A stretch of 58,356 nt of DNA from a virus (IMGVR_UViG_3300029563_000007:1-58356), one strand, 5' to 3'; shown: positions 4,166 through 54,832, numbered from the stretch's first letter. Translations and numbers: made by a program. The notes: generated from the sequence alone by a model not told the origin.

Positions 4166-4169
4166 ACAA

Positions 4170-4635: not shown

Positions 4636-4642
4636 TAAAAAT

Positions 4643-4683
4643 ATTGCCGGCTACAGATTGGTTGTAGTCGCTACCCTAAAACA
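4643..4683 (+). repeat. hairpin-containing direct repeat, copy 2 (downstream of 4249 gene)
   Basis: GGCTACA-GATTGGT-TGTAGTC stem-loop; see copy 1. Confidence 0.6.
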
Positions 4684-4720
4684 GTTATAGGCAGAGGTCT
4701 ATAAGCACCTTTGCTGAAAA

Positions 4721-16348: not shown

Positions 16349-19300
16349 GCGTGGAATTAGATTCATTAGAAGTCAAAATTACCGGTACTGCCACTAAAGC
16401 TATCAATTCTGTTGATAAACTGATAAATCAGCTTACAAGGCTGTCAACATCACTTGCGACTGTAAATGGTTCATCATTAAGCAGTCTTGCGAGCGGTGTT
16501 AGTCAGTTAGGTTCTGCTATGCAGAATATGAACGCAGGGACAGCAGATTTTACCCGACTTGCTAAGAACATCACAAAGATAGGTTCTGTTGATTCGGTTG
16601 CACTAACTAACACAGCTACATCACTTCAAGCTGTCACAAAGGCAGTTGCAAGCATATCAGCTATTCCGCAAAATGCAACACAGGTCACAGAATTTGCAAA
16701 GTCACTTGGTAAGCTAGGCAGTAAGAGTATAGAAAATGCCGTTGTAAACATTCCAAAGCTAGGCAATGCTTTAAATGGCTTAATGACAACGCTATCAAGA
16801 GCACCAACAGTAAGTCAGAATGTTATTCAAATGACTAACGCATTGGCTAATCTTGCTAGTCAAGGTAGCAAGGTGGGTACTTCTTCAAACTCACTTCAAA
16901 AGTCACTGTATGGCGTTTCTACGAGCGTCAGGACAGCGACTAAGAGCAGTTGGAACTTGGCAAGTGCAATAGGTAAGTTTTATGCCACTTATTTTATGGT
17001 AATTCGTGGCAGTAAGAAACTTATAGAAGCCATCAAGTCAACAACAGATTACATTGAAGCGTTCAACTATCAAGCGGTTGCGTTTGGTAAGATTGGTTCA
17101 GAGTGGGATAAAGATTACGAAAAGTACGGATATGATAACGCAACAGCATATGCAGAGAGCTTCCAAAGCAGAGTAAACGATACTCTCGGAAAGCTGTCTG
17201 GTTTAAAAGTTAATGTTCAAGGTGGCTTGCTTGAAGAAAGTGGAGCAAAGAACTTAGGACTTAACATACAAGAGATAACACAGTATGCTTCGCAGTTAGC
17301 TTCTGTCACTAACTCATTAGGACAGACAGGCGAAGCGACAACGGCAATAACAAAGTCAATGACAATGCTTGCAGGCGATATAAGCTCACTTTTTAACGTG
17401 GACTATTCAACAGTAGCACAGAACTTACAAAGCGGTTTAATCGGACAATCGAGGGCATTGTACAAGTATGGTATTGATATTACCAATGCTACATTAGCGA
17501 CGTATGCTTACAACTTAGGCATTTCTAAGTCGGTGTCTGAAATGACACAGATGGAAAAACAACAGTTAAGAGTGTTGGCAATATTAGACCAGAGTAAAGT
17601 ATCTTGGGGCGATTTAGCCAATACGATTAACAGTCCATCAAATATGTTACGACAGTTCAGCAACAATATGAAAGAGGTAGGAATGGTAGCAGGACAGCTA
17701 TTTATTCCAATTCTTTCAAAGGTTATGCCAATAGTAAACGGAGTAGCTATTGCAATCAAAAGATTATTAGTCAGCCTCGCTTCTTTAATGGGCGTTAAGA
17801 TTGACTTTGAGAGCTTCGGACAAAGTGGCTATAAAGACACATCAGACGGCTTAGAAGATATTTCAGATGGCTACCAAGATGTAGCTGATTCAGCTAAGAA
17901 AGCTACATTATCCCTTATGGGATTTGATGAAATAAATAAATTACAGGACGATACAAGCTCAAGCAAGGGTTCAAGTGGCGGTGGCGGTAGCACTATTGAT
18001 TTGACAGACGATATTGCTAAGGCGGCGGCAGAATATGAAGCGGCGTGGAATAAAGCGTTTGCCAATATGGAAAATTCGGCAGTTGCCTGGGCTGACAGAA
18101 TAGAGAAAACACTCGAACCTGTTAAACAGATTTTTAAAGATTTTGCAGTTGGTGATTTCTTTAAGGCGGGGCAAGATACATCTAACCTAGTGGCAGGAAT
18201 TTTTGATTGGTTTGCAAAAGCTATAGATGATGTTCCGTGGTTTAAAATCGGTCAGAAAATGGGAGATTTCCTTGCAGGCATTAATTGGACTAAGGTGTTT
18301 AAATCGGCGGCTAAAGTGCTTGTACAAGGCTTAAAAGCGGCTATTGAATTATACTTAGGTATGCTATCTAAAGCACCTATAGAAACACTTCTTATATCGC
18401 TTGTGGCAGTCCCTAAAGTACTTAAGGCGATAGGCGGTTCAGCAGTTGTAGCTAGTATAGTAAAAACGTACAAGACACTTGATAAATTTGCAACAACAGT
18501 AGCGGCGGCAACAGGCGCACTTAATGGAAATAAAGCGGCGGCTTCGGCACTAACATTTATGTACCCAAAGGCGGCTAAAACTGTAACTGATGTTAATAAA
18601 ACCTTTAATGCCCTTAAAACATCTTTAAATGACAATGGCTTTTTCGCTACATTTAATGAGGGGATTGAAACTATTAGAGGCAAAATGTCAGCATTGCAGA
18701 AAAGTGCAATAGGCGTTATAGGTGTATTTGCAGAGTTTTCGCTTGTTAAGAGCGGCTTTTATGAATTGGCGGTAGGAAGTGATAACCTTGTAGTTTCTAT
18801 TGCTAAAATAGCAGGCGGCGTAGGCGTAGCAACGGCGGCGTTAAAACTCATAGGCTTATCAAACCCATTCACAGCATTAATAGTGGGTGCTACTGGCTTA
18901 ATATCGTCAATAGTGGGTATCTCACAAGCTGTAAAAGAAGCAGAATTTAATAGTATGTTTACAGCATTGCAAGATACTGGAACTGTCACAATGAAAGAAT
19001 TAGGCGATGTAGCCAAAGACTCTTTTGGAAAAATAACAGATGGTATAACTGAAACCACAGACAAACTTAAAAATATATCAGAAGCAAAAGAAAATCTTGA
19101 AGAAACAACAGATAATGTAAATCTTTTAAAAACAGCGGTTGAAGATGGAGCATACACGACTAATGAAAAAATGCCGGAAATTATAGAACAATTCCAAAAC
19201 TTATTAAGTGAATCTAAAAATGTATTCAATGATGAATATGATGTTATCGTTGGTAATGTTGTAGGTGCTTGGAAAGATATTCTTGAAGCGCAAGGCGTTG

Positions 19301-20943
19301 CAATTCCAGAGTATGTGGCACAATTAGCAAGTTTACGCGACAAAGGAAATGAATCGTTTACAAGTATGAGTTCAGATTTAGAAACACTTATACAGCAGTT
19401 TAATGATGGGAAAATATCAGAAGAAGAGTTCTTAAATGCGGCTACGCCTTTAATAGATAAAATATCTTCTATTAATAGTGACAAGTCGGTTGATAATGCG
19501 ACACTTGCTATTCAAGGATTTGGCGGCGCATTAGATATATCACAGTATATGACAGAATCCGGACTTGATGTTCAAAGATTTAGTGAGGCTGTAAATGAAG
19601 TTGTAACAGCGGCACAAAACGGAAAAGATAACCTATCCACATTGGGAACGGAATCGTCACAAGCTATAACGGATATGAGAGATAGGCTTACAGCTTTAGG
19701 AATAGATGCAAGTCAATTTGATTGGTCAAGTTTATATGGTGCTAGTGATACGCAAGTACAACAAGGCACAGAGAGAATAGACGCGGCATATATGCAATAT
19801 GCTAATCAAGTACAGTATAACTTGCTCAATCAACTTCCATCAGTAGTTGAAGAAGCAACAAAAGACTATGAAAACCTAAACCCAATAGCTAAAATATTCA
19901 CAACAAAAGAAAACTATATTAAAAGTGTTATTGAGAAATGGCGTAAAAGCACATTAGACCCAGCACTTGATTCTGTTAAAGATGGCTTTAATCAGTTAGG
20001 AATAGACGGAAGCGTGTACGCTGATGAAGCGGCAGACAAGCTCACAACATCGCTATTTGATAGTATTAGAGTTTATTCCAATGTTGGTGTTAACAACACA
20101 AAGCCTAAACTTAAGGAAGATTGGCAAGAAATGCTTGATTCTGCTTTAAATGAAGCAGGAGAAGCAGTAGACGTAGAGGGCTATGGAAGAAATACAGTAG
20201 ATGGCTTTGTTAACGGAATTGTTGATAATGTTAATAAAAGCAACAATGCTGTAAGAGATTGGATGGATGAATTAGATAGAAATATTCACGATAGTGCAAT
20301 GAATTTTGGTTCACCATCAAGGCGTGCGGAAGAATACGGAAGATGGGTTGTTGAGGGTTTTAACAATGGTTTATCTGACAATTTAAGTAGCACATATAGC
20401 GCGATTGATGATTACGTTAACAATGTTAAATCGAGCTTTGATGGCATATATGATTCATTATGGGATATAGGTCATTATGCAGGCAGAGGTTTCTATGATG
20501 GCTTAGAAAGTATGGAAAACAGTATTTTTAGCGAAGCTAGATACATCGCAGATAACGTATCTGATACAATAAGAGATGCCTTAGACATTCATAGTCCATC
20601 AAGAGTTATGAAACAGATAGGTGAATACACGATAGAGGGCTTCAAACAAGGTATGGAGCTTAATTACAAACCTGTTGAGGTTTCTTTAAGCGACTTTACT
20701 AGCGATATTATTCAAAGCACAAAAGCAAGTAAATTTAATGCAAATACTAGCATACCTACAATGCCACAAATTAATATGGATAATAGCGCCACAACAGAAA
20801 CTAATATGTTATTAAGGCAACTAATATACGCTGTTGAAAATGGAAGAACAATAGAAATTGATGGACAAGAGATATTCAGAGTTACACAAAAGCAAGCAAA
20901 TATGTACACAGCAATGACTGGGTTACCTGCATATAATATATAA
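16345..20943 (+). CDS. tape measure protein
   Basis: 1532 aa, helical/Ala-Ser-rich with hydrophobic central segments, canonical position. Confidence 0.9.
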   Translation: MSVELDSLEVKITGTATKAINSVDKLINQLTRLSTSLATVNGSSLSSLASGVSQLGSAMQNMNAGTADFTRLAKNITKIGSVDSVALTNTATSLQAVTKAVASISAIPQNATQVTEFAKSLGKLGSKSIENAVVNIPKLGNALNGLMTTLSRAPTVSQNVIQMTNALANLASQGSKVGTSSNSLQKSLYGVSTSVRTATKSSWNLASAIGKFYATYFMVIRGSKKLIEAIKSTTDYIEAFNYQAVAFGKIGSEWDKDYEKYGYDNATAYAESFQSRVNDTLGKLSGLKVNVQGGLLEESGAKNLGLNIQEITQYASQLASVTNSLGQTGEATTAITKSMTMLAGDISSLFNVDYSTVAQNLQSGLIGQSRALYKYGIDITNATLATYAYNLGISKSVSEMTQMEKQQLRVLAILDQSKVSWGDLANTINSPSNMLRQFSNNMKEVGMVAGQLFIPILSKVMPIVNGVAIAIKRLLVSLASLMGVKIDFESFGQSGYKDTSDGLEDISDGYQDVADSAKKATLSLMGFDEINKLQDDTSSSKGSSGGGGSTIDLTDDIAKAAAEYEAAWNKAFANMENSAVAWADRIEKTLEPVKQIFKDFAVGDFFKAGQDTSNLVAGIFDWFAKAIDDVPWFKIGQKMGDFLAGINWTKVFKSAAKVLVQGLKAAIELYLGMLSKAPIETLLISLVAVPKVLKAIGGSAVVASIVKTYKTLDKFATTVAAATGALNGNKAAASALTFMYPKAAKTVTDVNKTFNALKTSLNDNGFFATFNEGIETIRGKMSALQKSAIGVIGVFAEFSLVKSGFYELAVGSDNLVVSIAKIAGGVGVATAALKLIGLSNPFTALIVGATGLISSIVGISQAVKEAEFNSMFTALQDTGTVTMKELGDVAKDSFGKITDGITETTDKLKNISEAKENLEETTDNVNLLKTAVEDGAYTTNEKMPEIIEQFQNLLSESKNVFNDEYDVIVGNVVGAWKDILEAQGVAIPEYVAQLASLRDKGNESFTSMSSDLETLIQQFNDGKISEEEFLNAATPLIDKISSINSDKSVDNATLAIQGFGGALDISQYMTESGLDVQRFSEAVNEVVTAAQNGKDNLSTLGTESSQAITDMRDRLTALGIDASQFDWSSLYGASDTQVQQGTERIDAAYMQYANQVQYNLLNQLPSVVEEATKDYENLNPIAKIFTTKENYIKSVIEKWRKSTLDPALDSVKDGFNQLGIDGSVYADEAADKLTTSLFDSIRVYSNVGVNNTKPKLKEDWQEMLDSALNEAGEAVDVEGYGRNTVDGFVNGIVDNVNKSNNAVRDWMDELDRNIHDSAMNFGSPSRRAEEYGRWVVEGFNNGLSDNLSSTYSAIDDYVNNVKSSFDGIYDSLWDIGHYAGRGFYDGLESMENSIFSEARYIADNVSDTIRDALDIHSPSRVMKQIGEYTIEGFKQGMELNYKPVEVSLSDFTSDIIQSTKASKFNANTSIPTMPQINMDNSATTETNMLLRQLIYAVENGRTIEIDGQEIFRVTQKQANMYTAMTGLPAYNI

Positions 20944-29884: not shown

Positions 29885-30991
29885 ATGATTAAATGTGGAG
29901 ATTTTTCAGCGTGGAATGGTGTAGTTGACTGGAACAGAGTTAAGGCGGCAGGACTTACTCACGCTATTCTTAAGGTTATCAGACGTGATTTTGACCCAGA
30001 TAAGCAACTTGAAAACAACTGGAAAGGCTGTCAGTTAGCAGGTGTGCATATTTGCGGTGTATACAACTATGTTTACACACCAACAGTAGAAGAAGCTATT
30101 GCGGCGGCTAACAGAGTGCTTGAAGTGCTTGACGGACGTAAGGTAACTGTCTGGATGGACGTTGAAGATACTTGTATGCGAAACTTAGGTTCAGAGCTTA
30201 TTGATATTATCAAGGCTTACAAAGAGGTTATTGAGGGTGCAGGATATGACTTTGGCGTATATACTGGCTTATCATTCTATGGTAGTTACATCAAGCCCTA
30301 TACAGACCCTAGCGACTTAGATTGTCCGTTCTGGATAGCACGTTACTACTTAGGATATGATGAAATGCAGTTAAATGATGATGTTAACGCAGATAAGACA
30401 CCCAGTATCGACCATTATCTTGCGGGGTGGCAGTATACTTCTAGCGCAAGAATTGACGGTGTAGACGGAGTTTGCGACTTATCAGAATTCTATGGCTTTC
30501 ATAATGAAGAAGATAATACAGAAGATAACAGCGAAGAAGATAACACAGAGGATAGCACAGATGAACACGTATATGCTACATACGCCGCTTATACCGATAG
30601 ATGGTGGGGTGAAGTAGAAGATAGAGAAGATTGGGCTGGTGCAGGCGACAATAAAGCTATCACAGCACTTATTATCAAGGTTAGCAGAGGTTCAGTTAAG
30701 TACAGAGTTCACTTAAAGGGCGGAGATTGGCTTCCTTATGTTACTGGCTTTAATTATGACGATTACGATAATGGCTATGCAGGTGACAAGAAGCACGAGA
30801 TTGACGCAATAGAAATCATTTACTATACACCAGAGGGCGAGCCTTGGAAGTATGCTAAGTATATGGTATCTGTATTTAACAACCGCAACTTCTATCCAGA
30901 ACAGGTAGATGATGAAACATCAAACGGAATGGACGGATATGCAGGCGTTATGGGTAATGCAATCGACAAGTTCCAGTTAGTTGTCGAATAA
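29885..30991 (+). CDS. endolysin, GH25 muramidase domain plus acidic linker and C-terminal putative wall-binding domain
   Basis: N-terminus GDFSAWNGVVDWNRVKAAGLTHAILKV... resembles GH25 (D.S..QG.IDW..VK); NEEDNTEDNSEEDNTEDSTDE linker. Confidence 0.7.
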   Translation: MIKCGDFSAWNGVVDWNRVKAAGLTHAILKVIRRDFDPDKQLENNWKGCQLAGVHICGVYNYVYTPTVEEAIAAANRVLEVLDGRKVTVWMDVEDTCMRNLGSELIDIIKAYKEVIEGAGYDFGVYTGLSFYGSYIKPYTDPSDLDCPFWIARYYLGYDEMQLNDDVNADKTPSIDHYLAGWQYTSSARIDGVDGVCDLSEFYGFHNEEDNTEDNSEEDNTEDSTDEHVYATYAAYTDRWWGEVEDREDWAGAGDNKAITALIIKVSRGSVKYRVHLKGGDWLPYVTGFNYDDYDNGYAGDKKHEIDAIEIIYYTPEGEPWKYAKYMVSVFNNRNFYPEQVDDETSNGMDGYAGVMGNAIDKFQLVVE

Positions 30992-31214: not shown

Positions 31215-31334
31215 ATGAGTAATGAGGAATACAGGCAAATAATAATAGAAACAGTCAATAACTGTAATAATAAAAGATTTTTAAAGTTTTTATATGAATT
31301 AATTATATCATTCAAAAAGAAATGGGGCATTTAA
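31215..31334 (+). CDS. 39-aa protein (moron-like)
   Basis: SD GAGGGGAG then ATG 31215; MSNEEYRQIIIETVNNCNNKRFLKFLYELIISFKKKWGI; ends in bidirectional hairpin GGGGCAT-TTA-ATGCCCC. Confidence 0.45.
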   Translation: MSNEEYRQIIIETVNNCNNKRFLKFLYELIISFKKKWGI

Positions 31335-31690
31335 TGCCCCTCTTTCTCATACCAATAGGCTATATTGTCAAATATAGTTTGTTGATGTTCTTTATTAAGT
31401 TTCATTAACTTCTTAACACTATCCAACATTTTCTTATCTGACATCAAGTCGGGAATAATATCAGCATTATCAGTAGATAAATTATCTTCCCATCCCATTA
31501 AATATGATGGAGAAATATCAAGAATCTGTGCAGCAATCTGAATTTTATCACTTGGTATGTTTGTTACGGCATTGTTTTCATACTTATATAATGTCTGTTT
31601 AGAAACGCCCATCTTTTTAGCCAACTCTACTTGTGACATATTGTTAAGCTCTCTTTGTTCCTTAATCCTATCTCCAACAGTTTTAATCAT
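31331..31690 (-). CDS. CI-like repressor (XRE-family HTH)
   Basis: 119 aa; VGDRIKEQRELNNMSQVELAKKMGVSKQTLYKYENN; divergent from a Cro-like gene. Confidence 0.8.
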   Translation of the reverse strand: MIKTVGDRIKEQRELNNMSQVELAKKMGVSKQTLYKYENNAVTNIPSDKIQIAAQILDISPSYLMGWEDNLSTDNADIIPDLMSDKKMLDSVKKLMKLNKEHQQTIFDNIAYWYEKEGH

Positions 31691-46498: not shown

Positions 46499-46897
46499 AT
46501 GAAGTTTTCGGGACTGACTAAGCCGGAGCTTGATGAAATAATTGAAAATGCCAATTTCACAGAAGAGGAACTAAGAATTTTCAAGTTGCTTGTGGGTAAT
46601 ATGAGCTTAGAACAGGTTAGTCAAAGACTTATGTTATCCAAAGCAACAATTTCAAGAAGAGTTAAGGATATAAAAATCAAGATAGAAAGGACTGATGACA
46701 TGGTTAAAACAATTCCTATATGGGAAAAAGTTACATTAACAGTTGAAGAAGCGTCCGAATATAGCAATATCGGAATTAATAGAATCAGCAGTATGCTTAA
46801 TGAAATTAGCTGTCCATTTGTTTTAAGAGTTGGGAATAAGAGGCTTGTTAAGCGTAAGGAGTTTGAGCACTATATAGAAAAAAGTAACGAAATATAG
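46499..46897 (+). CDS. two-domain DNA-binding protein: sigma-region-4/LuxR-like HTH plus excisionase-type HTH
   Basis: EEELRIFKLLVGNMSLEQVSQRLMLSKATISRRVKDIK and LTVEEASEYSNIGINRISSMLNE...LRVGNKRLVKRKEFEHYIE; directly upstream of int. Confidence 0.5.
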   Translation: MKFSGLTKPELDEIIENANFTEEELRIFKLLVGNMSLEQVSQRLMLSKATISRRVKDIKIKIERTDDMVKTIPIWEKVTLTVEEASEYSNIGINRISSMLNEISCPFVLRVGNKRLVKRKEFEHYIEKSNEI

Positions 46898-46979: not shown

Positions 46980-48167
46980 ATGGGAAAAGATTTAAAAGGT
47001 AAAGAACTAGGTGTAGGATTGTCGCAGCGAAAGGACGGTGTGTATCAAGGGAGATATAAAGATAGATTTAATAAGATTAAATATATTTATGGCACAAAGT
47101 TATCAGAAGTTAAAAAAGAATTGGCTGTTGCAATAGCAGAAAATATTCAATTTACAAGCATTAGAGATGATATTAAGCTGGACGATTGGTTTAATCGTTG
47201 GATAGAAGTGTACAAAAAGAAAAGTGTACGCCCTAATACCCTTAGAGAATACACTCACATATACAATAAAAATATATCACCTTTTTTAGGAAATCGCAAC
47301 ATAAATTCCTTTGTTAAATCAGATATTCAAACACTAATTGATAAAATAGCTGATGACAATTATAAATATGAACGGCAGAACAAGATTAAGGTTATACTTA
47401 ATGATATGTTCAGTAGAGCAATAGAAGATGACTTAATGATTAAAAATCCAGCAAAAGGTGTAAAGCTTAGGGCTGATAAAGAACTTAAAGCTTTCACACT
47501 AACAGCAAAACAACAGATAGAGTTTTTAGAAGCAAGTAAAGGGACATTTTACGATAATTTGTATAATGTGGCAGTTAATACAGGCTTGCGGCCAGGGGAA
47601 TTGTTTGCACTTACACCTAATGATATACACTTAGATGAGGGGTATATTGATGTTAATAAGACACTTGTGTATCAAAAATACCTTGATGATAAGTGCAAAA
47701 CTTTTCACATTGAGCCGCCTAAAACCAAACAGAGTTATAGACAAGTACCTATTAACAGCGAATGCATTAAATATCTTGAAAAGCAGTTCGAATTAAAGGA
47801 TATTGTAAAGTGCAAAAGACCTAAAGAGCAGAACAATTATTTGTTTGTGACAAGTTATAACACGCCTCTCAATTCGCAGATTTATTCAGATTCAATTAAA
47901 GCTATTGTTAAGCAGATAAATCTTGCAAGAAGTTTTGATAACGAATTTCCTGTGTTTAGTGGACATACTTTAAGACATACTTTTGCTACAAGATGTTTTG
48001 AAGCAGGTGTGCAGGCAAAAGTTGTTCAATCATATTTAGGTCATGCAACTCTTAAAATGACAATGGATTTATATACACATGTAACAGAAGAAAGAGCGGC
48101 AGTAGATATTGAAAGAATTGTGAAAGACAAGGACAACATTGTTGATTTTAAGAAAAGTGCTGTGTAG
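46980..48167 (+). CDS. int: tyrosine integrase (Tn916-Int-like, with N-terminal arm-binding domain)
   Basis: 395 aa; N-terminus ...VGLSQRKDGVYQGRYKDRFNK..; catalytic GLRPGE, HTLRHTFAT, LGHATLKMTMDLYTH. Confidence 0.9.
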   Translation: MGKDLKGKELGVGLSQRKDGVYQGRYKDRFNKIKYIYGTKLSEVKKELAVAIAENIQFTSIRDDIKLDDWFNRWIEVYKKKSVRPNTLREYTHIYNKNISPFLGNRNINSFVKSDIQTLIDKIADDNYKYERQNKIKVILNDMFSRAIEDDLMIKNPAKGVKLRADKELKAFTLTAKQQIEFLEASKGTFYDNLYNVAVNTGLRPGELFALTPNDIHLDEGYIDVNKTLVYQKYLDDKCKTFHIEPPKTKQSYRQVPINSECIKYLEKQFELKDIVKCKRPKEQNNYLFVTSYNTPLNSQIYSDSIKAIVKQINLARSFDNEFPVFSGHTLRHTFATRCFEAGVQAKVVQSYLGHATLKMTMDLYTHVTEERAAVDIERIVKDKDNIVDFKKSAV

Positions 48168-48437
48168 TAAGTGTGTAGTACTACACACATTAAAACTGAA
48201 AAAACCACAAAATAAGAGGGTTTAAGATGCATAATATATTTAACTTGGAAAACTTATTATGTATACCAGACGACCCCTTATGAACTTAACAAAAAGCACG
48301 ATAAATGCGGTATTTAAGGGTTTTTATGTGACATTAGACTGATTATCAATTTCCACATATTTCTATGTATTTCAATGCATTTCAATAGCAAAAGTGTGTA
48401 GTAAGTGTGTAGTAACAAGATTAAAAGTGTGTAGTAA
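48162..48437. repeat. attP-type region with five GTGTAGTA(A) arm-type repeats and an 18-bp palindrome
   Basis: GTGTAGTAA at 48162, 48173, 48396, 48407, 48429; palindrome GTGTGTAGTACTACACAC 48171-88; CATTTCAAT x2 at 48370-87. Confidence 0.6.
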
Positions 48438-48476
48438 ATTAAAACTAAATAAAGCCTTGATGTATGACATAAATAT

Positions 48477-48509
48477 GAGAAGAACTTGATAATGTTCTTC
48501 TCTTTTTTT
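48477..48509 (+). terminator. rho-independent terminator at the edge of the att region
   Basis: GAGAAGAAC-TTGATAAT-GTTCTTCTC then TTTTTTT. Confidence 0.7.
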
Positions 48510-48544: not shown

Positions 48545-48700
48545 ATGTTTTCTGATGAAGTTAGAGAAAAAATCTTAAGCAAAGAAGAATTGCAAAAGCT
48601 TGACTTAGTGACATTATCTCTTGTTATCCACGCAATCGAGGAAGTTTTAGAGGAGGCAGACAATGAACAATCCTTATCAAGCAGTGCCTATGATGAATAA
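48545..48700 (+). CDS. hypothetical acidic 51-aa protein
   Basis: SD GAGAGG then ATG 48545; overlaps the next gene by 38 nt. Confidence 0.3.
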   Translation: MFSDEVREKILSKEELQKLDLVTLSLVIHAIEEVLEEADNEQSLSSSAYDE

Positions 48701-49193
48701 TTCTTATATGCAATCTCAAAATCCATATATGGATAGAATGAACTTTTTGCAAAATTATCAGCAGAGCTTGCAACAACAGCCTATGCAGATGAATCAGCAG
48801 CCTATGCCACAGCAGATAGCAGGCATTAACGGAAGAATAGTACAGACAGTTGAAAATATTAATGCAAATGAAGTGCCTATGGATGGCTCAATGGCATTTT
48901 TTCCAAAACAGGATATGTCGGAAATATATGTTAAGGGTTGGAATGCTGACGGAACAATTAAGACGGTTGTGTATAAGCCTTATACAGCCCCTAAAGATAA
49001 TCAGACAGTAAATTCTATGGCTAATACAGAAAACGCTAAATTTACCCTATCAGACGAAAGCACACAGCTATTTCTGAATAAGTTTGAGGAATTATCGGAG
49101 AAAATAGGGCAGTTGGAAAATAGATTTGATAAATCTTTAGGAACACAGAGAAAAACATCAAGAACTCAAAGTAAGGGCGGTGATGAAGAATGA
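48663..49193 (+). CDS. Q/M/N-rich N-terminus plus beta-rich domain protein, unknown function
   Basis: 176 aa; MNNPYQAVPMMNNSYMQSQNPYMDRMNFLQNYQQSLQQQPMQMNQQPMPQQ then INGRIVQTVENINANEVPMDGSMAFFPKQDMSEIYVKGWNADGTIKTVVYKPY. Confidence 0.6.
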   Translation: MNNPYQAVPMMNNSYMQSQNPYMDRMNFLQNYQQSLQQQPMQMNQQPMPQQIAGINGRIVQTVENINANEVPMDGSMAFFPKQDMSEIYVKGWNADGTIKTVVYKPYTAPKDNQTVNSMANTENAKFTLSDESTQLFLNKFEELSEKIGQLENRFDKSLGTQRKTSRTQSKGGDEE

Positions 49194-49417
49194 ATCAGCA
49201 GTTAATTCAAACTATAAATCAACTTAAGTCAATTCGGAATCCACAGCAAATGGCAATGAATTGTTTACAACAGTCGGCACAGCGTGGAAATCCTATGGCA
49301 AAAAACTTGCTTAATCAGATAAACAGTGGAAACACGCAAGGCGCAGAGCAAATTTTAAGTAATTTTATGAATACACAAGGAATAAACCTTAATGATATTA
49401 AGGGTATGATGAATTAG
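49190..49417 (+). CDS. Q/N-rich helical small protein
   Basis: 75 aa, ATGA overlap. Confidence 0.5.
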   Translation: MNQQLIQTINQLKSIRNPQQMAMNCLQQSAQRGNPMAKNLLNQINSGNTQGAEQILSNFMNTQGINLNDIKGMMN

Positions 49418-49488
49418 GACATTTTGGGTTGTGCGCACATAATGACCGGTTATCCCATTTGTTAATAAAATAAATGGAGGTAAACAAG

Positions 49489-50256
49489 ATGTTTAATTCA
49501 AACGGAGTTAGTCTCGCAGATATTGCCGCAGTAACAGGCAATAATCGTAATAACGATGGTATGTGGGGCGATGGTGCATGGTGGATTGTAATTCTCTTAA
49601 TCTTTGGCTGGGGCAATAACGGCTGGGGCGGTTTCGGTGGAAATGGCAACGGCGCAGGCTACACTGATTCAGCTATACAAAGAGGTTTTGACAATCAGGC
49701 AGTTATCAGCAAGTTAGATGGCATTTCTAACGGACTTTGTGACGGCTTTTATGCTATGAACAACAGTATGCTCACAGGTTTCAATGGCATTAACACAAAT
49801 ATTATGCAGACAGGCTATGGCATCCAGCAGGCTATTAACGCTGATACAGTCGCTAATATGCAGAATATAAACGCATTACAGGCACAGCTTGCTAACTGCT
49901 GCTGTGAAACTCGTGAAGCTATCCAAGGTGTAAACTACAACATGGCAACTAACACTTGCGCTTTACAAAACACAATGAACAATAACGCAAGAGACATTAT
50001 CGACAGTCAGAATGCAGGAACGCGCGCTATTCTCGATTATCTCTGCAATGAGAAAATTTCTTCCTTACAGGCAGAAAATAACGACCTTCGCAGAGCAGCT
50101 TCGCAGGATCGTCAGAGTGCATTACTTACAACTCAGATGGCAGCTCAGACACAGCAGATTATCAATGCTGTAAATCCGGCACCAATTCCGGCATATACAG
50201 TACCTAATCCAAATGCGTATTATGGATGCGGATGTAATACAGGATGCGGATGCTAA
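49489..50256 (+). CDS. membrane protein with G/W/N-rich segment, Q/N-rich repeats and Cys-rich tail
   Basis: SD GGAGG then ATG 49489; GAWWIVILLIFGWGNNGWGGFGGNGNGAG, CCCETREAIQG, C-terminus YYGCGCNTGCGC. Confidence 0.6.
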   Translation: MFNSNGVSLADIAAVTGNNRNNDGMWGDGAWWIVILLIFGWGNNGWGGFGGNGNGAGYTDSAIQRGFDNQAVISKLDGISNGLCDGFYAMNNSMLTGFNGINTNIMQTGYGIQQAINADTVANMQNINALQAQLANCCCETREAIQGVNYNMATNTCALQNTMNNNARDIIDSQNAGTRAILDYLCNEKISSLQAENNDLRRAASQDRQSALLTTQMAAQTQQIINAVNPAPIPAYTVPNPNAYYGCGCNTGCGC

Positions 50257-50409
50257 ACAATTAAATAATCAAGTATCTTAATCAAATTTAATCGGTTTAA
50301 TTCTTAGTTTATCTTGGTTTTAATCGGTTTAATCGAGTTAAGTATCGAGTTTAACTCGAAAGAAAACTCGGAAGATTATGTCTGCTAAGCAGTATTACTT
50401 ACAAACACA

Positions 50410-50441
50410 AAGGGCAGGCTATAATGTTTGCCCTTATTTTT
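50410..50441 (+). terminator. rho-independent terminator
   Basis: AAGGGCA...TGCCCTT then ATTTTTAT. Confidence 0.6.
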
Positions 50442-50461
50442 ATGAAAGAGAGGTAAAAATA

Positions 50462-50881
50462 ATGGAAATAACAGGAATTGCGTTACAAACAGTTGCCGCC
50501 GGCGAAGATGTGGCATTCACAGAAACAGCAGTGAACGGAACAAAATGTATCGTACACAGACAGGGAAGCGGAATTATCAAGTTAAGAGGTATCACAAATC
50601 AGTGCAAGGCTAGATTTTTGGTATCGTATTCCGGCAACATTCAGATTCCGACAGGCGGTACAGTCGGAGCTATTTCACTTGCCATTGCAGTAGACGGAGA
50701 GCCTTTACAGTCAACACGAATGATAGTTACTCCGGCAGCAGTACAAAATTTATTTAACGTTTCAGCGCAGGCATACGTTGATGTGCCTTGTGGTTGTTGC
50801 AGTACAGTAGCGGTGCAAAATACATCTACACAGGCTGTTGAGGTGCAGAACAGCAACTTAATCGCAGTAAGGGAGGCTTGA
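50462..50881 (+). CDS. beta-sandwich protein reminiscent of BclA C-terminal / C1q-TNF-like jelly-roll domains
   Basis: SD GAGAGG then ATG 50462; VAFTETAVNGTKCIV...GIIKLRGI...FLVSYSGNIQIPTGG..ISLAIAVDGEPLQ...VAVQNTSTQAVEVQNSNLIAV; pattern-level resemblance only. Confidence 0.4.
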   Translation: MEITGIALQTVAAGEDVAFTETAVNGTKCIVHRQGSGIIKLRGITNQCKARFLVSYSGNIQIPTGGTVGAISLAIAVDGEPLQSTRMIVTPAAVQNLFNVSAQAYVDVPCGCCSTVAVQNTSTQAVEVQNSNLIAVREA

Positions 50882-50885
50882 TGAT

Positions 50886-51500
50886 ATGCATAAATGGGCT
50901 AAACAGATTATGGAATGTGTCAAGGCAAAAGTTGAAGCAATCGGATTAGATAGCTTTGAGGGGCAGAACCTTGACGATTTAAAGGATTTTACAGAAATAG
51001 CGAAGAATATAGCTTGCTTTGACAAGGATTACAGAATTGTTGAAGCTATGGAAAAGTCAGAAGATAATGAGGATATTATGCGTATGCTTGAACAGTACGA
51101 AGATTATCCGGACAGAAGATTTTACGACCACTACCGCTATGCAGATGGAAGATTTGCCCCTAAAGGTAAAGGAACATACCGCAGAGGATATGAAGAACCA
51201 CCTTATTACCATATGTACCCAGAAAGAGATATGGATAGAGAGTATGGCAGAATGTACTATACAGAGCCTACAAGTACACATACCGCTGAAAGTGGCTATG
51301 ACAGGGCAAAGAGAATGTATACAGAAACTAAAGAAATGCACAAAGCTAATACACCAGAGGATAAGGAGCATAAGATGAAGTCCCTTGACAGCTACACTAA
51401 GGAACTTGCAAGCGACATTACAGGTATGGTTGCCGATATGTCAGCAGAAGAAAAAAACTTACTTAGAACAAAGTTAAGCACTCTTGTATCTAAGATTTGA
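50886..51500 (+). CDS. Tyr/Arg/Glu/Pro-rich protein, unknown function
   Basis: 204 aa; ...YRRGYEEPPYYHMYPERDMDREYGRMYYTEP... Confidence 0.5.
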   Translation: MHKWAKQIMECVKAKVEAIGLDSFEGQNLDDLKDFTEIAKNIACFDKDYRIVEAMEKSEDNEDIMRMLEQYEDYPDRRFYDHYRYADGRFAPKGKGTYRRGYEEPPYYHMYPERDMDREYGRMYYTEPTSTHTAESGYDRAKRMYTETKEMHKANTPEDKEHKMKSLDSYTKELASDITGMVADMSAEEKNLLRTKLSTLVSKI

Positions 51501-51507
51501 TTTTAAG

Positions 51508-51543
51508 GGCTATGGGTAGCAATATTCATAGCCTGTTTTATTT
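51508..51543 (+). terminator. terminator-like hairpin
   Basis: GGCTATG...CATAGCC then TGTTTTATTT. Confidence 0.5.
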
Positions 51544-51559
51544 AGAAAGGGGCATACAG

Positions 51560-51880
51560 ATGATTTTTAACATCAATGGTACAATTTGGCACATACAATA
51601 TAAAAATTCAAATTCAAGTGAATTAAGGCGGTCGGACAACACAATTAGCTTAGGTGTAACTGACAGAAACACGCATACAATATACCTGTCAGACAAATTG
51701 CAGGGATTTATGCAACGCAAAGTGCTTATACACGAAGTATGCCACGCAATCTGTATGTCTTATGATGTGTATTTACCGATTGAGCAGGAAGAAATATTGT
51801 GCGATTTTGTAGCAACTTACGGAGATGAAATATTTGATATTGTTGATATGGTGCTTGGGGCAGTTAGGAGAGTGGGATAA
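51560..51880 (+). CDS. small HExxH putative metallopeptidase
   Basis: SD AAAGGGG then ATG 51560; motif VLIHEVCHAI. Confidence 0.45.
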   Translation: MIFNINGTIWHIQYKNSNSSELRRSDNTISLGVTDRNTHTIYLSDKLQGFMQRKVLIHEVCHAICMSYDVYLPIEQEEILCDFVATYGDEIFDIVDMVLGAVRRVG

Positions 51881-52026
51881 TGAGTATTGATGAGCTATTG
51901 GAAATAATTCAAAGGACTAATCCAACTATGACAAAGGAATTATTGATATATGAGCTTAGTCAATGTCAGTATTCAAGTAAGGCGTTGATACATACAGAAG
52001 AATGCTGTCAAAAAATTTCGAGGTAA
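51880..52026 (+). CDS. hypothetical 48-aa protein
   Basis: ATG overlaps the upstream TAA; MSIDELLEIIQRTNPTMTKELLIYELSQCQYSSKALIHTEECCQKISR. Confidence 0.35.
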   Translation: MSIDELLEIIQRTNPTMTKELLIYELSQCQYSSKALIHTEECCQKISR

Positions 52027-52039
52027 CGCATTCAATACG

Positions 52040-52305
52040 CCCCCAGGTATGGCATTTTGTATTCGCAATTTCGATTTTGACAATTCCCAAAATTTGGTCC
52101 AGATTTCGTTCAAATCCTACTTAAAAATTGGAAAAATTTCTCCACAAATTTTATTGCTAAAAATTTTGATACCCCCGTCATATGCAATTTTGGAATCCAA
52201 AAATCGGTTACGCAGAATTTCAATTTTTGCTCCCGATTTCGTTCAGATTTGCCCTGAAAAATTGATGAAAAACTTCAACAGATTAAAGTGCATTATATAA
52301 ACTTG
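52040..52305. repeat. two degenerate ~132-bp tandem repeats rich in phased A/T tracts
   Basis: Both units start CCCCC(A/G).. (52040, 52172) and share GCAATTT.., GATTTCGTTCA(A/G)AT (52102, 52235) and ..AAAAATTG..AAAAA..TTC. Confidence 0.55.
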
Positions 52306-52424
52306 ACTGGCTGTGGTTCGCGTTTATTTTGGCGTTGTGGCTTTGTGATTTGCCCTGTACGGCGGTTTTATTGTGTCGGTGTAGAACTTATAAGCCTACA
52401 GAACAAAACAGCCTTAAAACGCCT

Positions 52425-52453
52425 TTGAAAGCGTTGTATAAAATGGGTATAAT
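52425..52453 (+). promoter_or_regulatory. near-consensus sigma-70 promoter with no ORF downstream
   Basis: TTGAAA 52425-30, 17-nt spacer, TATAAT 52448-53. Confidence 0.55.
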
Positions 52454-52600
52454 ATACCCTTGAAAGTTGTGGAAGCTGTTGTCAGTTCTGGAGAATTCAA
52501 CAGAACGCACGCCGCTCCAACCGGGTACACTTGTACACCTAAAAAGCGCAAAAGCCTTATATATAAGCATAGCATTATTATATTAATTTTTCAAGGTACG

Positions 52601-52629
52601 CAAAGAAAAGCATATAAAAATATATGCTT
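52601..52629 (-). terminator. rho-independent terminator (minus strand)
   Basis: Minus strand AAGCAUAUA-UUUU-UAUAUGCUU followed by UUCUUUG. Confidence 0.6.
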
Positions 52630-52631
52630 AA

Positions 52632-52673
52632 TGCTTGCGGCTGGAATCGAACCAACCAGAACCCACAGCAAGC
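52632..52673 (-). ncRNA. tRNA-like acceptor/T-arm minihelix B
   Basis: Minus strand GCUUGCU-GUGGGUUCU-GUUGG-UUCGAUU-CCAGC-CGCAAGC-A; 6 of 7 acceptor pairs; no D or anticodon arm. Confidence 0.5.
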
Positions 52674-52674
52674 C

Positions 52675-52700
52675 AAAAAGGGCGCAGATTGTACGCCCTT
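52675..52700 (-). terminator. rho-independent terminator (minus strand) after the 52699 gene
   Basis: Minus strand GGGCG-UACAAUCUG-CGCCC then UUUUU. Confidence 0.6.
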
Positions 52701-52980: not shown

Positions 52981-53025
52981 TGTTATACCTCCATATTTTC
53001 ATTTTCCCCCTGACATCAGGGTAAA

Positions 53026-53066
53026 AGCAAGCCGGGGAATCGAACCCCGGAAACGCCAGCCTTGCT
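53026..53066 (-). ncRNA. tRNA-like acceptor/T-arm minihelix C
   Basis: Minus strand AGCAAG-GCUGGCGUUU-CCGGGG-UUCGAUU-CCCCGG-CUUGCU; its first two nt are the AG of the upstream UAG stop. Confidence 0.55.
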
Positions 53067-53298
53067 AATTTGCATAATAAAAATCAAAAACTTCTTTTCT
53101 TTCGGCTTGTCGCATTGCAAGAACACGCTCGAAAGCTCTTTTTACTAAAGGGAGAACATTTGCGCCCGATTTAATTGATTTCGCAATAGCAAGCATCTCT
53201 TCCGACGTCTTGTCGTAGATATAGCTAATAGCATTGTCAAAAGTCTCCTCCGAAATTTTTAATTCTTTCAAATCCTGTTGATATGTTTTAAATTCCAT
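53065..53298 (-). CDS. hypothetical protein
   Basis: 77 aa ORF track. Confidence 0.55.
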   Translation of the reverse strand: MEFKTYQQDLKELKISEETFDNAISYIYDKTSEEMLAIAKSIKSGANVLPLVKRAFERVLAMRQAERKEVFDFYYAN

Positions 53299-53695: not shown

Positions 53696-53723
53696 AATAA
53701 TTAACCATCCTTTCTTTTTGCTT

Positions 53724-53782
53724 GTCTCATCAGTGGCAAGGTTGCAACCCTACACCAGACCGCCGGGCGGCGGTTTCGACTA
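53724..53782 (-). ncRNA. hammerhead self-cleaving ribozyme, type II topology (candidate)
   Basis: Minus strand GUC-GAAA-CCGCC(GCCC)GGCGG-UC|UGGUGUAGGGU(UGCA)ACCUUGCCA-CUGAUGA-GAC; all invariant core nucleotides in the canonical order. Confidence 0.7.
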
Positions 53783-54787: not shown

Positions 54788-54832
54788 AACACTAAAAATA
54801 GTGTTGACAATATAACGCTATCGGTATATAAT
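54788..54832 (+). promoter_or_regulatory. consensus promoter overlapped by a palindrome
   Basis: AACACTA-AAAA-TAGTGTT 54788-805; TTGACA 54804-09, 17 nt, TATAAT 54827-32. Confidence 0.6.

What the first reader, a model, noticed from the sequence alone, without database searches (positions are those of the whole stretch)
48545..52026. att-proximal cargo module of compositionally extreme proteins with no recognisable phage function
Right after the attP repeats and an insulating terminator (48477-48509) come eight plus-strand genes:
- an acidic 51-aa peptide;
- a protein with a Q/M/N/P-rich prion-like N-terminus and a beta-rich domain;
- a Q/N-rich helical protein;
- a membrane protein with a GWGNNGWGGFGGNGNG segment, a CCC motif and a C-terminal YYGCGCNTGCGC;
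- a 139-aa beta-sandwich whose sequence pattern recalls BclA C-terminal / C1q-like jelly rolls and contains CGCC;
- a Tyr/Arg/Glu/Pro-rich protein (YRRGYEEPPYYHMYPERDMDREYGRMYY);
- a small HExxH protein;
- a Cys-containing 48-aa peptide.

Internal terminators and a direct repeat TTAATCGGTTTAAT x2 (50288-301, 50320-33) suggest separate regulation. High Cys, Tyr, Gly and Gln content is typical of cross-linked surface layers such as spore coat or exosporium proteins. The position next to att is where lysogenic-conversion genes usually sit. This could be a prophage-encoded cell-surface or spore-surface remodelling module, but I cannot assign families by eye.
Basis: inference. Interest (0 to 1): 0.65.

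Follow-up and report, generated by a model that had tools for sequence, protein, structure and literature searches.

The report
Mobile phage cassette with TNF-like protein
The eight genes next to the phage attachment site are real and one does fold like a spore-surface (BclA/C1q/TNF) protein, but the set is a widely travelling phage gene cassette of unknown function, also found in non-temperate phages and in phages of non-sporulating hosts, so it is not a spore-remodelling cargo special to this prophage.

Summary
Observation confirmed.

The attP is proven by two prophage junctions. The phage carries the last ~24 codons of the host metA/HTS gene at 48254-48326.

The AlphaFold2 model has pLDDT 97. 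Its best solved-structure matches are F-BclA, ExsFA/BxpB and BclA C-terminal domains, plus TNF and C1q.

The interpretation as lysogenic-conversion, spore-surface cargo is only partly supported. The core genes g2-g6 form a conserved cassette with its own 5' terminator and edge motif, and it sits in very different places:
- inside a head operon;
- among tail-fibre genes;
- after lysis genes;
- next to recombination genes.

It occurs in Butyrivibrio phage Ceridwen, in crAss-like and Bacteroides phages, and the g4 gene in a putative archaeal virus. None of the soluble proteins has an export signal.

Best reading (about 0.4): a self-contained phage accessory cassette that builds a membrane-anchored complex inside the cell. 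The complex would pair the Cys-rich helical protein g4 with a small beta-sandwich partner. g7-g8 is probably a separate ImmA-like regulatory pair. The function remains unknown.

The parts
48160..48437 (.). attP: arm-type integrase repeats GTGTGTAGTAA (48160-48188, three copies, one of them inverted; 48394-48437, three direct copies) flanking the core
   Evidence: 7 matches against 1.2 expected; integrase 46980-48167 hits PF00589 at 8e-29; excisionase 46499-46897
48254..48326 (+). attP core and phage-borne copy of the 3' end of the host metA/HTS gene (…NYYVYQTTPYELNKKHDKCGI*). Homology to the prophage left junctions starts here
   Evidence: L043 is 98% identical from window 48254 onward, with host metA (PF04204) directly upstream
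48477..48509 (+). terminator T1 (9-bp stem plus T7) insulating the cassette from upstream transcription
   Evidence: An equivalent hairpin with a different stem sequence sits at the same place in L074
48504..48519 (+). conserved 5'-edge motif TTTTTTATGCAAAAAT, unique in the window
   Evidence: found once per locus in 37 loci, always at the 5' edge of the cassette, in two different phage lineages
48545..48700 (+). g1, acidic 51-aa peptide (present only in this clade)
48663..49193 (+). g2: Q/N/P/M/Y-rich N-terminus, ~55-aa beta domain, coiled-coil helix, basic tail; phrog_21718
49190..49417 (+). g3: 75-aa Q/N-rich helical protein
49474..50256 (+). g4: single 13-residue hydrophobic segment (WWIVILLIFGW) in a 30-residue uncharged Gly/Trp/Asn stretch, then a long helical region with invariant CCC, a Pro-rich segment and a Cys-rich C-terminus; phrog_16490
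50257..50461 (+). g4-g5 spacer: variable TTTAAY-type repeats including TTAATCGGTTTAAT x2 (50288, 50320); a conserved 4-bp hairpin in ATGTCTGC…GCAGTATTAC (50378-50398); a conserved 10-bp GC hairpin plus U-tract (50410-50442) just before the g5 ribosome-binding site
50462..50881 (+). g5: stand-alone 139-aa TNF/C1q/BclA-CTD-fold jelly roll; phrog_20016
50886..51500 (+). g6: two helical ends around a Tyr/Arg/Asp/Glu-rich low-complexity centre
51507..51541 (+). terminator-like hairpin T3 after g6, separating g7-g8
51560..51880 (+). g7: small HExxH metallopeptidase, ImmA/IrrE (M78)-like; phrog_1233. Likely start is the ATG at 51560 (106 aa), as in the relatives
51880..52026 (+). g8: 48-aa Cys-containing peptide that always follows g7 in this clade

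Best explanation
The region is a composite of two parts.

(1) g1-g6, with terminator T1 and a conserved 16-nt edge motif, is a self-contained cassette that moves horizontally among phages. It belongs to phages and is not host-derived cargo.

Its invariant heart is g4 and the small beta-rich protein encoded directly after it. g4 is a bitopic-looking protein with a short hydrophobic anchor, a Gly/Trp-rich juxtamembrane stretch, a long helical region clamped by an invariant CCC, and a Cys-rich tail. Here the partner is g5, a TNF/C1q-fold jelly roll. In other phages an unrelated Cys-rich ~130-aa family fills the same slot. g2, g3 and g6 are coiled-coil and low-complexity accessory subunits.

None of the soluble proteins has an export signal, so I infer that the complex is assembled inside the cell on the cytoplasmic face of the membrane, with g4 as anchor and stalk and the beta-sandwich as its head.

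The cassette works in phages of monoderm, diderm and possibly archaeal hosts, and sits anywhere in the genome. I therefore infer that it acts autonomously on something universal, namely the cytoplasmic membrane of the infected or lysogenic cell. The most likely job is to control traffic through that membrane: exclusion of superinfecting DNA, or control of lysis timing.

(2) g7-g8, behind terminator T3, is probably a separate ImmA-like metallopeptidase unit belonging to the adjacent regulatory region.

Shown: gene reality, synteny, fold of g5, attP, mobility and distribution.
Inferred: topology, g4-g5 contact, site of action, function.
For: Conservation and coupling:
- Order g2-g3-g4-(beta protein)-g6 is conserved across 45 loci.
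- g4 is followed at once by g5-type in 25 loci or by the alternative family in 11.
- In divergent phages the g4 stop and g5 start are only 10-20 nt apart.

Mobility. The cassette is found:
- at attP (window, L042, L043);
- inside a head operon, between the portal and minor head protein genes and the scaffold and major head protein genes (L074);
- between tail-fibre genes and the tape measure gene (L034, L039);
- after tail and lysis genes (Ceridwen, bajarodcaudo virus 5, L019, L037, cr116_1);
- next to recombination genes (XP41-N3, Bacteroides phage C3_41T2LP).

Autonomy. Its own upstream terminator and the identical 5' motif are present both in the 58-kb and the 44-kb lineages.

Abundance. 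More than 7800 90%-identity clusters for g4, and 660 50%-identity clusters for g5, all stand-alone at ~140 aa.

Host breadth. The crAss-like g4 hits phrog_16490 at 1.8e-50. vir215 g4 carries CCC twice.

Structure and topology:
- g5 model pLDDT 97.1, TNF/C1q/BclA fold.
- No N-terminal hydrophobic h-region in g1, g2, g3, g5 or g6.

g7. Pfam M78 at 1e-4 (22.3 bits against a cut-off of 22). It is preceded by an HTH_3 gene in L043 and separated from g6 by inserted genes in L008.
Against:
- g4 could not be modelled (pLDDT 45.8), so its stalk nature rests on composition and on other annotators' 'spike/viral fibre' labels.
- The hydrophobic segment is short (13 residues) and need not be a membrane span.
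- Most contexts are late or structural regions on the late strand, which equally fits a virion role.
- A TNF-fold head on the cytoplasmic side of a membrane has no precedent that I know of.
- No similarity to any known exclusion, holin or defence protein.
- A small HExxH protein also follows the cassette in L004 and in Bacteroides and crAss-like phages, so g7 may belong to it after all.
Confidence: 0.4

Rival explanations
1. Split virion fibre. g4 is a trimeric coiled-coil shaft with an N-terminal anchor, and g5 (or the alternative beta protein) is an exchangeable TNF-like knob joined through the Cys-rich ends. g2, g3 and g6 (and possibly g7) are assembly helpers. The fibre decorates the particle as a whisker or side fibre and binds a ligand in the gut.
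For: - TNF-like knobs cap phage fibres and needles. Foldseek hits include the cyanophage A4 tail, the phi812 central spike knob and the A-1(L) short fibre, and collagen/C1q-tipped viral fibres.
- Gene neighbourhood among tail-fibre genes, next to a tail protein and a DGR reverse transcriptase in vir215, and within a head operon.
- Exchange of the distal partner between unrelated families resembles receptor-binding-module swapping.
- No export signals, so assembly is in the cytoplasm.
- Other annotators labelled crAss-like and Bacteroides g4 as 'spike' or 'viral fibre'.
Against: - A fibre needs a docking site on the particle, yet the cassette moves between sipho-type, crAss-type and putative archaeal viruses and between head, tail, lysis, early and att positions.
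- It carries its own upstream terminator even inside the head operon.
- g5 is the most conserved gene of the cassette among close relatives (96-98% against 88-91% for g4 and 56-90% for g6). That is the opposite of a receptor-binding tip.
- Q/N-rich and Y/R-rich low-complexity partners are unusual for virion proteins.
- In the window it lies 17 kb downstream of the lysis gene, behind the early operon.
Confidence: 0.2
2. First reader's reading. This is lysogenic-conversion cargo expressed from the prophage. It adds a cross-linked Cys/Tyr/Gly/Gln-rich layer with a BclA/ExsF-like head to the host spore (or cell) surface, assembled in the mother cell.
For: - Best solved-structure matches of g5 are exosporium proteins: F-BclA 1e-8, ExsFA 1e-6, BclA 1.5e-6, BxpB 3e-6. 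ExsFA/BxpB are also stand-alone proteins.
- Lack of signal peptides fits assembly in the mother cell.
- The hosts of this clade carry gpr, spoIIP, spoIIGA and sigE.
- The module is the first thing after attL and is insulated by a terminator.
- Sister phages insert into a sigG-like sporulation sigma gene.
- The composition resembles coat proteins.
Against: - The same cassette occurs in Ceridwen, which was only seen to grow lytically and whose host Butyrivibrio does not sporulate.
- It occurs in crAss-like and Bacteroides phages, in a Solobacterium MAG and in a putative archaeal virus.
- It is embedded in head and tail operons.
- No Pfam or NCBIfam match to BclA_C, C1q, TNF or any coat or exosporium family.
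- No collagen-like partner; all 660 cluster representatives are stand-alone.
- No sporulation-type promoter could be recognised.
Confidence: 0.1
3. A membrane-tethered organiser of phage replication or assembly. The low-complexity, coiled-coil proteins (g2, g3, g6) would form a scaffold or condensate anchored by g4, comparable in logic to phi29 p16.7/p1.
For: - Architecture of N-terminal anchor, coiled coil and C-terminal Cys cluster.
- Prion-like Q/N and Y/R/D/E low-complexity regions.
- Adjacency to recombination or replication genes in XP41-N3, C3_41T2LP and L004.
- Universality of the membrane as a platform.
Against: - No DNA-binding or replication domain detected.
- The cassette is accessory, absent from most relatives of these phages.
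- The role of a TNF-fold partner is unexplained.
- There is no homology to p16.7; the comparison is from memory only.
Confidence: 0.1
4. A phage-borne anti-phage defence (abortive-infection type) system with g4 as membrane effector, g5 as sensor and g7 as protease.
For: - Mobility, att-proximal hotspot position, own regulatory signals, multi-gene make-up, membrane protein plus protease.
- Weak PADLOC hit of g4 to ZorA (E 0.0035, coiled-coil part only).
Against: - No significant PADLOC or NCBIfam match.
- All 31 genome loci look like prophages, none like a defence island.
- Present in virulent crAss-like phages and inside structural operons.
- No enzymatic effector domain.
Confidence: 0.07

Closest known systems
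BclA C-terminal domain, F-BclA, and ExsFA/BxpB (Bacillus exosporium TNF/C1q-like trimers)
   Same: g5 has the same jelly-roll fold (Foldseek E 1e-8 to 3e-6, TM 0.66-0.75). Like ExsFA/BxpB it is a stand-alone protein of ~140-170 aa without a signal peptide.
   Different: Only 10-16% identity and no Pfam family match. No collagen-like region in g5 or in any of 660 cluster representatives. It is encoded by phages, including phages of non-sporulating hosts. Its operon partner is a hydrophobic-anchored helical protein, not ExsY or BclA.
Phage fibre and needle tips with TNF-like knobs (Sf6-type tail-needle knob, cyanophage and phi812 knobs, collagen/C1q-tipped fibres)
   Same: A helical or collagen shaft plus a TNF-fold trimeric tip is a recurrent viral design. 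Foldseek finds such knobs at E ~5e-5 and many in BFVD.
   Different: Here shaft and knob would be separate polypeptides. The shaft carries a membrane-type hydrophobic segment. The cassette is not fixed in the tail module. The comparison with the Sf6 needle is from memory and was not tested.
Morons encoding membrane exclusion proteins (HK97 gp15, lambda lom/bor, T5 llp, Sie2009/Ltp)
   Same: An autonomous unit bounded by terminators, inserted between unrelated phage genes including structural operons and att-proximal sites, and encoding a membrane-anchored protein.
   Different: Five to six genes rather than one. No sequence similarity. Also present in non-temperate phages. Expression from the prophage was not shown.
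ImmA/IrrE (Peptidase_M78) anti-repressor proteases
   Same: g7 has HExxH, a borderline Pfam M78 match (22.3 bits against 22), lies beside a divergent regulatory region, and in L043 follows a small HTH_3 gene.
   Different: Only ~106 aa. The best family is phrog_1233, of unknown function. A small HExxH protein also trails the cassette in phages without such a switch. Cleavage of a repressor was not tested.

Membership tests
TNF/C1q/BclA-CTD jelly-roll superfamily (g5) | Ten-stranded antiparallel jelly-roll beta sandwich | tested here: met
   AF2 model pLDDT 97.1, pTM 0.89. Foldseek PDB: 132 matches at E<=1e-3, led by 9h38, 1rj7, 7r1m, 1wck and 8d02, with TM 0.66-0.76
TNF/C1q/BclA-CTD jelly-roll superfamily (g5) | Homotrimer around a threefold axis | not testable with these tools
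   Only monomer prediction was available
TNF/C1q/BclA-CTD jelly-roll superfamily (g5) | Sequence-profile membership (Pfam TNF, C1q, BclA_C) | tested here: not met
   No Pfam family at E<=1; no NCBIfam family; profile against PDB sequences gives nothing relevant
BclA-type exosporium glycoprotein | N-terminal targeting region plus collagen-like GXX repeats before the C-terminal domain | tested here: not met
   g5 is 139 aa with no repeats. All listed representatives of the 660 clusters are ~100-196 aa and match end to end
BclA-type exosporium glycoprotein / ExsFA | Located on spores of the host | not testable with these tools
   Indirect evidence against: homologous cassettes occur in phages of Butyrivibrio and Bacteroides
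Moron (autonomous accessory unit in a phage genome) | Present at different positions, or absent, in otherwise related genomes | tested here: met
   Found at att-proximal, head-operon, tail, post-lysis and early positions
Moron (autonomous accessory unit in a phage genome) | Flanked by its own terminator(s) and promoter | tested here: inconclusive
   Upstream and internal terminators are present and travel with the cassette. No convincing promoter: the best candidate, 48464-48493, scores 10 of 12 and is not conserved in L042
Moron (autonomous accessory unit in a phage genome) | Expressed from the repressed prophage | not testable with these tools
ImmA/IrrE Peptidase_M78 (g7) | HExxH zinc site within the M78 domain profile | tested here: met
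   HEVCH present; PF06114 at E 1.2e-4, 22.3 bits against a cut-off of 22. Borderline, and it also hits SprT-like and DUF6782 below their cut-offs
ImmA/IrrE Peptidase_M78 (g7) | Paired with an adjacent XRE-type repressor that it cleaves | tested here: inconclusive
   L043 has a 60-aa HTH_3 gene just upstream of its g7. The window itself has only g8 and a divergent block of unassigned small genes
Known anti-phage defence systems | Match to a PADLOC model | tested here: not met
   Only g4 against ZorA, E 0.0035, 14 bits, in the coiled-coil part

The most novel reading that the evidence does not exclude
The cassette encodes a so far undescribed cell-built nanostructure shared across the gut virome, in phages of Bacillota and Bacteroidota and possibly in archaeal viruses. 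It would be a membrane-anchored, cysteine-clamped helical stalk carrying an exchangeable trimeric head (TNF-like or other), with prion-like and Tyr/Arg-rich partners forming a matrix. Its function would be new for phages, for example marking or remodelling the infected-cell membrane or released vesicles, or, in spore formers, the spore surface.
Probability: 0.12. Interest if true: 0.85.

Novelty: new variant of a known kind. Interest (0 to 1): 0.55.

Why it matters
The g4 family alone has more than 7800 90%-identity clusters in public metagenomes. It crosses from Lachnospiraceae siphophages to crAss-like phages. It is therefore one of the common unknowns of the human gut virome.

Three results give experimenters a concrete handle:
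- a high-confidence TNF/C1q fold for its partner g5;
- a defined cassette boundary;
- a cultured lysogen carrying a close relative (Lachnospira intestinalis CLA-AA-H89B, L011).

The analysis also corrects an attractive but too narrow reading as spore-surface conversion. Along the way it shows that sister phages of this one interrupt a sigG-like sporulation sigma gene.

Tried and rejected
(1) Small 4-7 kb GenBank records carrying the module (MT838775 and others) were considered as possible complete small phages. They are unverified linear scaffolds, that is, fragments.

(2) The 167-aa form of g5 starting at 50378. Rejected because the distance from that ATG to the g5 ATG is 84 nt here but 83 nt in L043, relatives have stops in between, and most family members are 139-140 aa.

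(3) 'Promoter -10 boxes in the terminator loops' (GATAAT, TATAAT). The loop sequences are not conserved in relatives while the stems are.

(4) The conserved motif upstream of g5 as a general late promoter. It is unique in the window.

(5) Remote homology between g5 and the alternative Cys-rich family. hhalign probability is 0.2%.

(6) AlphaFold2 of g4 with 145 sequences gave pLDDT 45.8, which is unusable.

(7) Profile searches of g2, g4, g5 and the alternative family against PDB sequences gave only coiled-coil noise.

(8) A ferritin-like guess for the proteins downstream of the cassette in XP41-N3 and bajarodcaudo virus 5. No Pfam support.

(9) Pfam, NCBIfam and PADLOC scans of g1-g8 gave nothing beyond the g7 peptidase.

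(10) Literature searches for a described function, for prophage BclA-like proteins and for sigG-interrupting elements found nothing specific.

(12) The direct repeat as a conserved operator. It lies in an insertion that the nearest relatives lack; other relatives have different short repeats at the same place.

Full report
**The window.** It is a ~58-kb tailed-phage genome of the low-GC Firmicutes type (35-40% GC). Its features, in order:
- three tRNA genes at 400-1013;
- a tape-measure-sized ORF at 16345-20943;
- an endolysin at 29885-30991;
- an XRE-type repressor on the minus strand at 31331-31690;
- a plus-strand early block with anti-repressor, SbcC-like, RecT, SSB and DnaD-like genes;
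- an excisionase at 46499-46897;
- a tyrosine integrase at 46980-48167 (PF00589, 8e-29).

The finding lies directly downstream of the integrase. No close DNA relative exists in the annotated phage collection.

**Check of the observation.** Each has homologues in the same order in other phages, so they are genes.

Three start sites were refined:
Relatives begin MFSDEV.
- g5 is the 139-aa form from 50462. The upstream in-frame ATG at 50378 is part of a conserved non-coding element, and its distance to the g5 start is not kept in frame (84 nt here, 83 nt in L043). Most family members are 139-140 aa.
- g7 most likely starts at 51560 (106 aa), as in its relatives. That leaves a terminator-like hairpin at 51507-51534 between g6 and g7.

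The terminator at 48477-48502 plus T-run and the internal one at 50410-50435 are found by the scan, in a region with 15 such sites against 5.5 expected. The integrase arm repeats are highly significant. The 14-nt direct repeat is exact but sits in an 82-nt stretch that the nearest relatives lack.

**attP is proven, and the host site identified.** Two bacterial contigs carry near-identical prophages (L042, L043; g5 96-98% identical). In both, the host gene order is gpr, spoIIP, M20 peptidase, DUF5688, pseudouridine synthase, ligA and metA/HTS, followed at once by g1.

Homology between the window and these junctions begins at window 48254, inside the last codons of metA. The phage therefore carries a replacement 3' end of metA (48254-48326) between its two sets of arm repeats. 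After integration, the module is the first thing behind attL, about 150 nt and one terminator downstream of the metA stop. The host is a spore former by gene content. The related prophage L011 is in the cultured Lachnospira intestinalis CLA-AA-H89B.

**What the proteins are.** Pfam, NCBIfam and PADLOC name nothing except g7, which is a borderline ImmA/IrrE M78 peptidase with HEVCH. PHROGs places four of the proteins in phage families of unknown function:

| Protein | PHROG family | E-value |
|---|---|---|
| g2 | phrog_21718 | 1.8e-10 |
| g4 | phrog_16490 | 2e-57 |
| g5 | phrog_20016 | 1e-65 |
| g7 | phrog_1233 | 4.1e-17 |

The families are very large. g5 has 1403 hits at 90% clustering and 660 clusters at 50% identity, all listed ones stand-alone at ~100-196 aa (most ~140) without fusions. 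g4 has more than 7800 hits in each of two searches.

**g5 fold.** With a 74-sequence alignment, AlphaFold2 gives g5 a model of pLDDT 97.1 and pTM 0.89, all beta. The best Foldseek matches against the PDB are:

| Match | PDB | E-value | TM |
|---|---|---|---|
| F-BclA tip domain | 9h38 | 1e-8 | 0.66 |
| EDA-A1 (TNF family) | 1rj7 | 7e-7 | 0.76 |
| ExsFA | 7r1m | 1e-6 | 0.72 |
| BclA C-terminal domain | 1wck | 1.5e-6 | 0.68 |
| BxpB | 8d02 | 3e-6 | 0.75 |

After these come 4-1BBL, C1q, collagen X NC1 and phage fibre knobs. Against predicted viral structures, the nearest matches are other ~135-145-aa stand-alone proteins of human-gut phages (TM 0.80-0.88), two of them already labelled 'BclA protein'.

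**g4 features.** g4 could not be modelled (pLDDT 45.8). Its alignments show:
- an invariant CCC and a conserved WW/Gly-Asn-Gly stretch;
- one hydrophobic run of only 13 residues inside a 30-residue uncharged segment;
- helices in the last third of the protein;
- a Pro-rich segment and a Cys-rich C-terminus.

None of g1, g2, g3, g5 or g6 has an N-terminal hydrophobic region that could serve as a signal peptide. This is a heuristic, not a dedicated predictor.

**The cassette and its variable partner.** Across 45 loci, the order g2, g3, g4, small beta protein, g6 recurs. The gene after g4 falls into three groups:
- g5-type in 25 loci;
- in 11 loci, a different ~130-aa family beginning M-x-C-x-x-x-C-x-x-C (alignment A4), with no detectable relation to g5 (hhalign probability 0.2%);
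- no partner detected in the remaining 9, two of which end at a contig edge.

In divergent phages, the g4 stop and g5 start are 10-20 nt apart with only a ribosome-binding site between them. The two are therefore an operon pair.

The window's clade has acquired a 112-400-nt spacer between them. It holds variable TTTAAY-type repeats, a conserved 4-bp hairpin within ATGTCTGC…GCAGTATTAC, and a conserved 10-bp GC hairpin with a U-tract just before the g5 ribosome-binding site. Three of 14 predicted pairs show compensatory changes. This is best read as an attenuator or terminator that sets the g1-g4 to g5-g6 ratio.

**Where the cassette sits elsewhere.** This is the key result.
- Dulem virus 39 has the window's layout: integrase, g1-g8, a divergent block, then Cro.
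- In a large ~44-kb lineage, g2-g6 (g4 83% and g5 64% identical) lies inside the head operon, between the portal and minor head protein genes and the scaffold, major head protein and head-tail adaptor genes.
- In that lineage it has the same kind of upstream terminator and the identical sequence TCTTTTTTTATGCAAAAATATAA(C/T)CAGAAAG at its 5' edge.
- The 16-nt core of that motif occurs once per locus in 37 loci and once in the window.
- In L034 and L039, the cassette lies between tail-fibre genes and further tail genes or the tape measure gene.
- In Butyrivibrio virus Ceridwen, bajarodcaudo virus 5, L019 (Acutalibacter) and L037, it follows tail and lysis genes.
- Ceridwen is an isolated phage seen only in lytic growth and judged virulent by its authors (PMC7372960).
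- In C. perfringens phage XP41-N3 and Bacteroides uniformis phage C3_41T2LP, it lies beside recombination genes.
- In crAss-like phage cr116_1, a g4 homologue with CCC, a Cys-rich tail and a phrog_16490 match of 1.8e-50 lies between the lysis and capsid genes. It is followed by a small beta protein, a beta-plus-coiled-coil protein, a Tyr/Glu/Arg-rich peptide and an HExxH protein.
- g4 homologues occur in many Crassvirales genera and in two viruses assigned to Methanomassiliicoccales. The vir215 protein has CCC twice and lies near a tail protein and a reverse transcriptase.

**What follows from this.** The cassette is a phage entity that moves as a unit with its own boundary signals. It is not restricted to temperate phages or to spore-forming hosts. 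Butyrivibrio and Bacteroides do not sporulate, and Crassvirales are generally not temperate (established knowledge).

This removes the main support for a lysogenic-conversion, spore-surface function as the general role. Within spore formers, such a use is not excluded. The fold resemblance to exosporium proteins is real, but the TNF/C1q jelly roll is also the standard tip of viral fibres.

**Most likely mechanism.** Three facts constrain it:
- the g4/beta-protein pair is the conserved heart and is translationally close-coupled;
- all soluble components lack export signals, so whatever is built is built in the cytoplasm;
- the cassette functions regardless of virion type, genome position or host envelope.

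The third point argues for an autonomous system acting on a universal target, and g4's hydrophobic segment points to the cytoplasmic membrane. I therefore favour a membrane-anchored complex, with g4 as stalk, the beta sandwich as head, and g2/g3/g6 as coiled-coil or low-complexity subunits. It would act at the membrane of the infected or lysogenic cell, with superinfection exclusion or lysis control as the most ordinary purposes. Morons encoding membrane exclusion proteins inside structural operons have precedent (HK97 gp15, from memory).

Confidence is about 0.4 overall. It is high for 'mobile phage cassette with a TNF-fold partner' and low for the function.

The main rival (0.2) is a split virion fibre with an exchangeable knob. 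It is favoured by the frequent late or structural context and by the fold. It is disfavoured by the promiscuous mobility, the upstream terminator, the strong conservation of g5 relative to g4 and g6 among close relatives, and the window's own layout. The spore-surface reading keeps about 0.1.

**g7-g8.** This pair is separated from g6 by a terminator-like hairpin. It is split from g6 by inserted genes in L008 and L043 and is absent from the 44-kb lineage's cassette. In L043 it is preceded by a small HTH_3 gene. I read it as an ImmA-like regulatory unit of the neighbouring switch region. One caveat: small HExxH proteins also trail the cassette in L004 and in Bacteroides and crAss-like phages.

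**Limits.**
- No expression data could be obtained.
- No multimer prediction was possible.
- Host assignments of MAG contigs (Bacteroidaceae, Tenericutes, Solobacterium) and of the archaeal viruses are those of the records and were not verified.

Noticed in passing
window 53716-53781 (- strand): Hammerhead type II ribozyme-like sequence between two minus-strand small genes. It scores 31.3 bits (Rfam gathering score 37), E 1.7e-4 for the 500-nt search. The conserved core elements CUGAUGA, CGAAAC and the GUC site are all present.
   Followed up: partly
window ~52627-52673 and ~53020-53070 (- strand): Two tRNA-like T-arm/acceptor fragments (GGTTCGATTCC-type) that ARAGORN does not call as tRNAs. 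The second is conserved in many relatives (L007-L014, L042, L043). They lie in the same minus-strand block as the hammerhead-like element.
   Followed up: partly
L008 7693-8000 against L007 ~7980-8010; L011 8413-8925: Sister phages with a large serine recombinase are inserted in a sigG-like sporulation sigma gene just after spoIIGA-sigE. The break is at codons AVPM|IIGE, with core CCCATGG. In Lachnospira intestinalis (L011) the same site is occupied in the opposite orientation. This would be a prophage interrupting a forespore sigma gene; I found no paper describing it.
   Followed up: partly
window 48254-48326: The phage carries the last ~24 codons of the host metA (homoserine O-acyltransferase, PF04204) gene, so integration keeps that gene intact.
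   Followed up: yes
window 52027-52700: A ~670-nt stretch without convincing ORFs after g8, conserved at 83-89% in L042/L043. It has a 20-nt internal repeat (52093-52112 and 52226-52245) and a promoter-like site TTGAAA-17-TATAAT at 52425-52453. It could be an origin, a packaging site or a non-coding RNA.
   Followed up: partly
window 54804-54832: A perfect sigma-70 consensus (TTGACA-17-TATAAT) on the + strand, just after the Cro-like gene. It is a candidate start of the long rightward operon that runs across the window ends into the packaging genes.
   Followed up: no
window 13796-13837: A 42-nt stretch 97.6% identical to the HNH endonuclease gene of Pseudomonas phage 201phi2-1. It is the only DNA match of the first 25 kb apart from a tRNA.
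   Followed up: no
L074 8959-9140; L007 6153-6365: A small sigma-region-4/GerE-like HTH gene lies just upstream of the cassette in the 44-kb lineage, and upstream of the recombinase in the serine-recombinase relatives. It could be the cassette's or the late genes' activator.
   Followed up: no
L001 11-757: An ORF whose first half looks like a sugar ABC-transporter permease and whose second half is a g2 homologue. L001 diverges from L074 upstream of position 388. It is either a prophage junction within a permease gene or a chimeric scaffold.
   Followed up: partly
L048 (Caudoviricetes sp. vir215) 2152-4759: In a virus assigned to Methanomassiliicoccales, the g4 homologue lies two small genes downstream of a DGR-type reverse transcriptase and a tail protein.
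   Followed up: no
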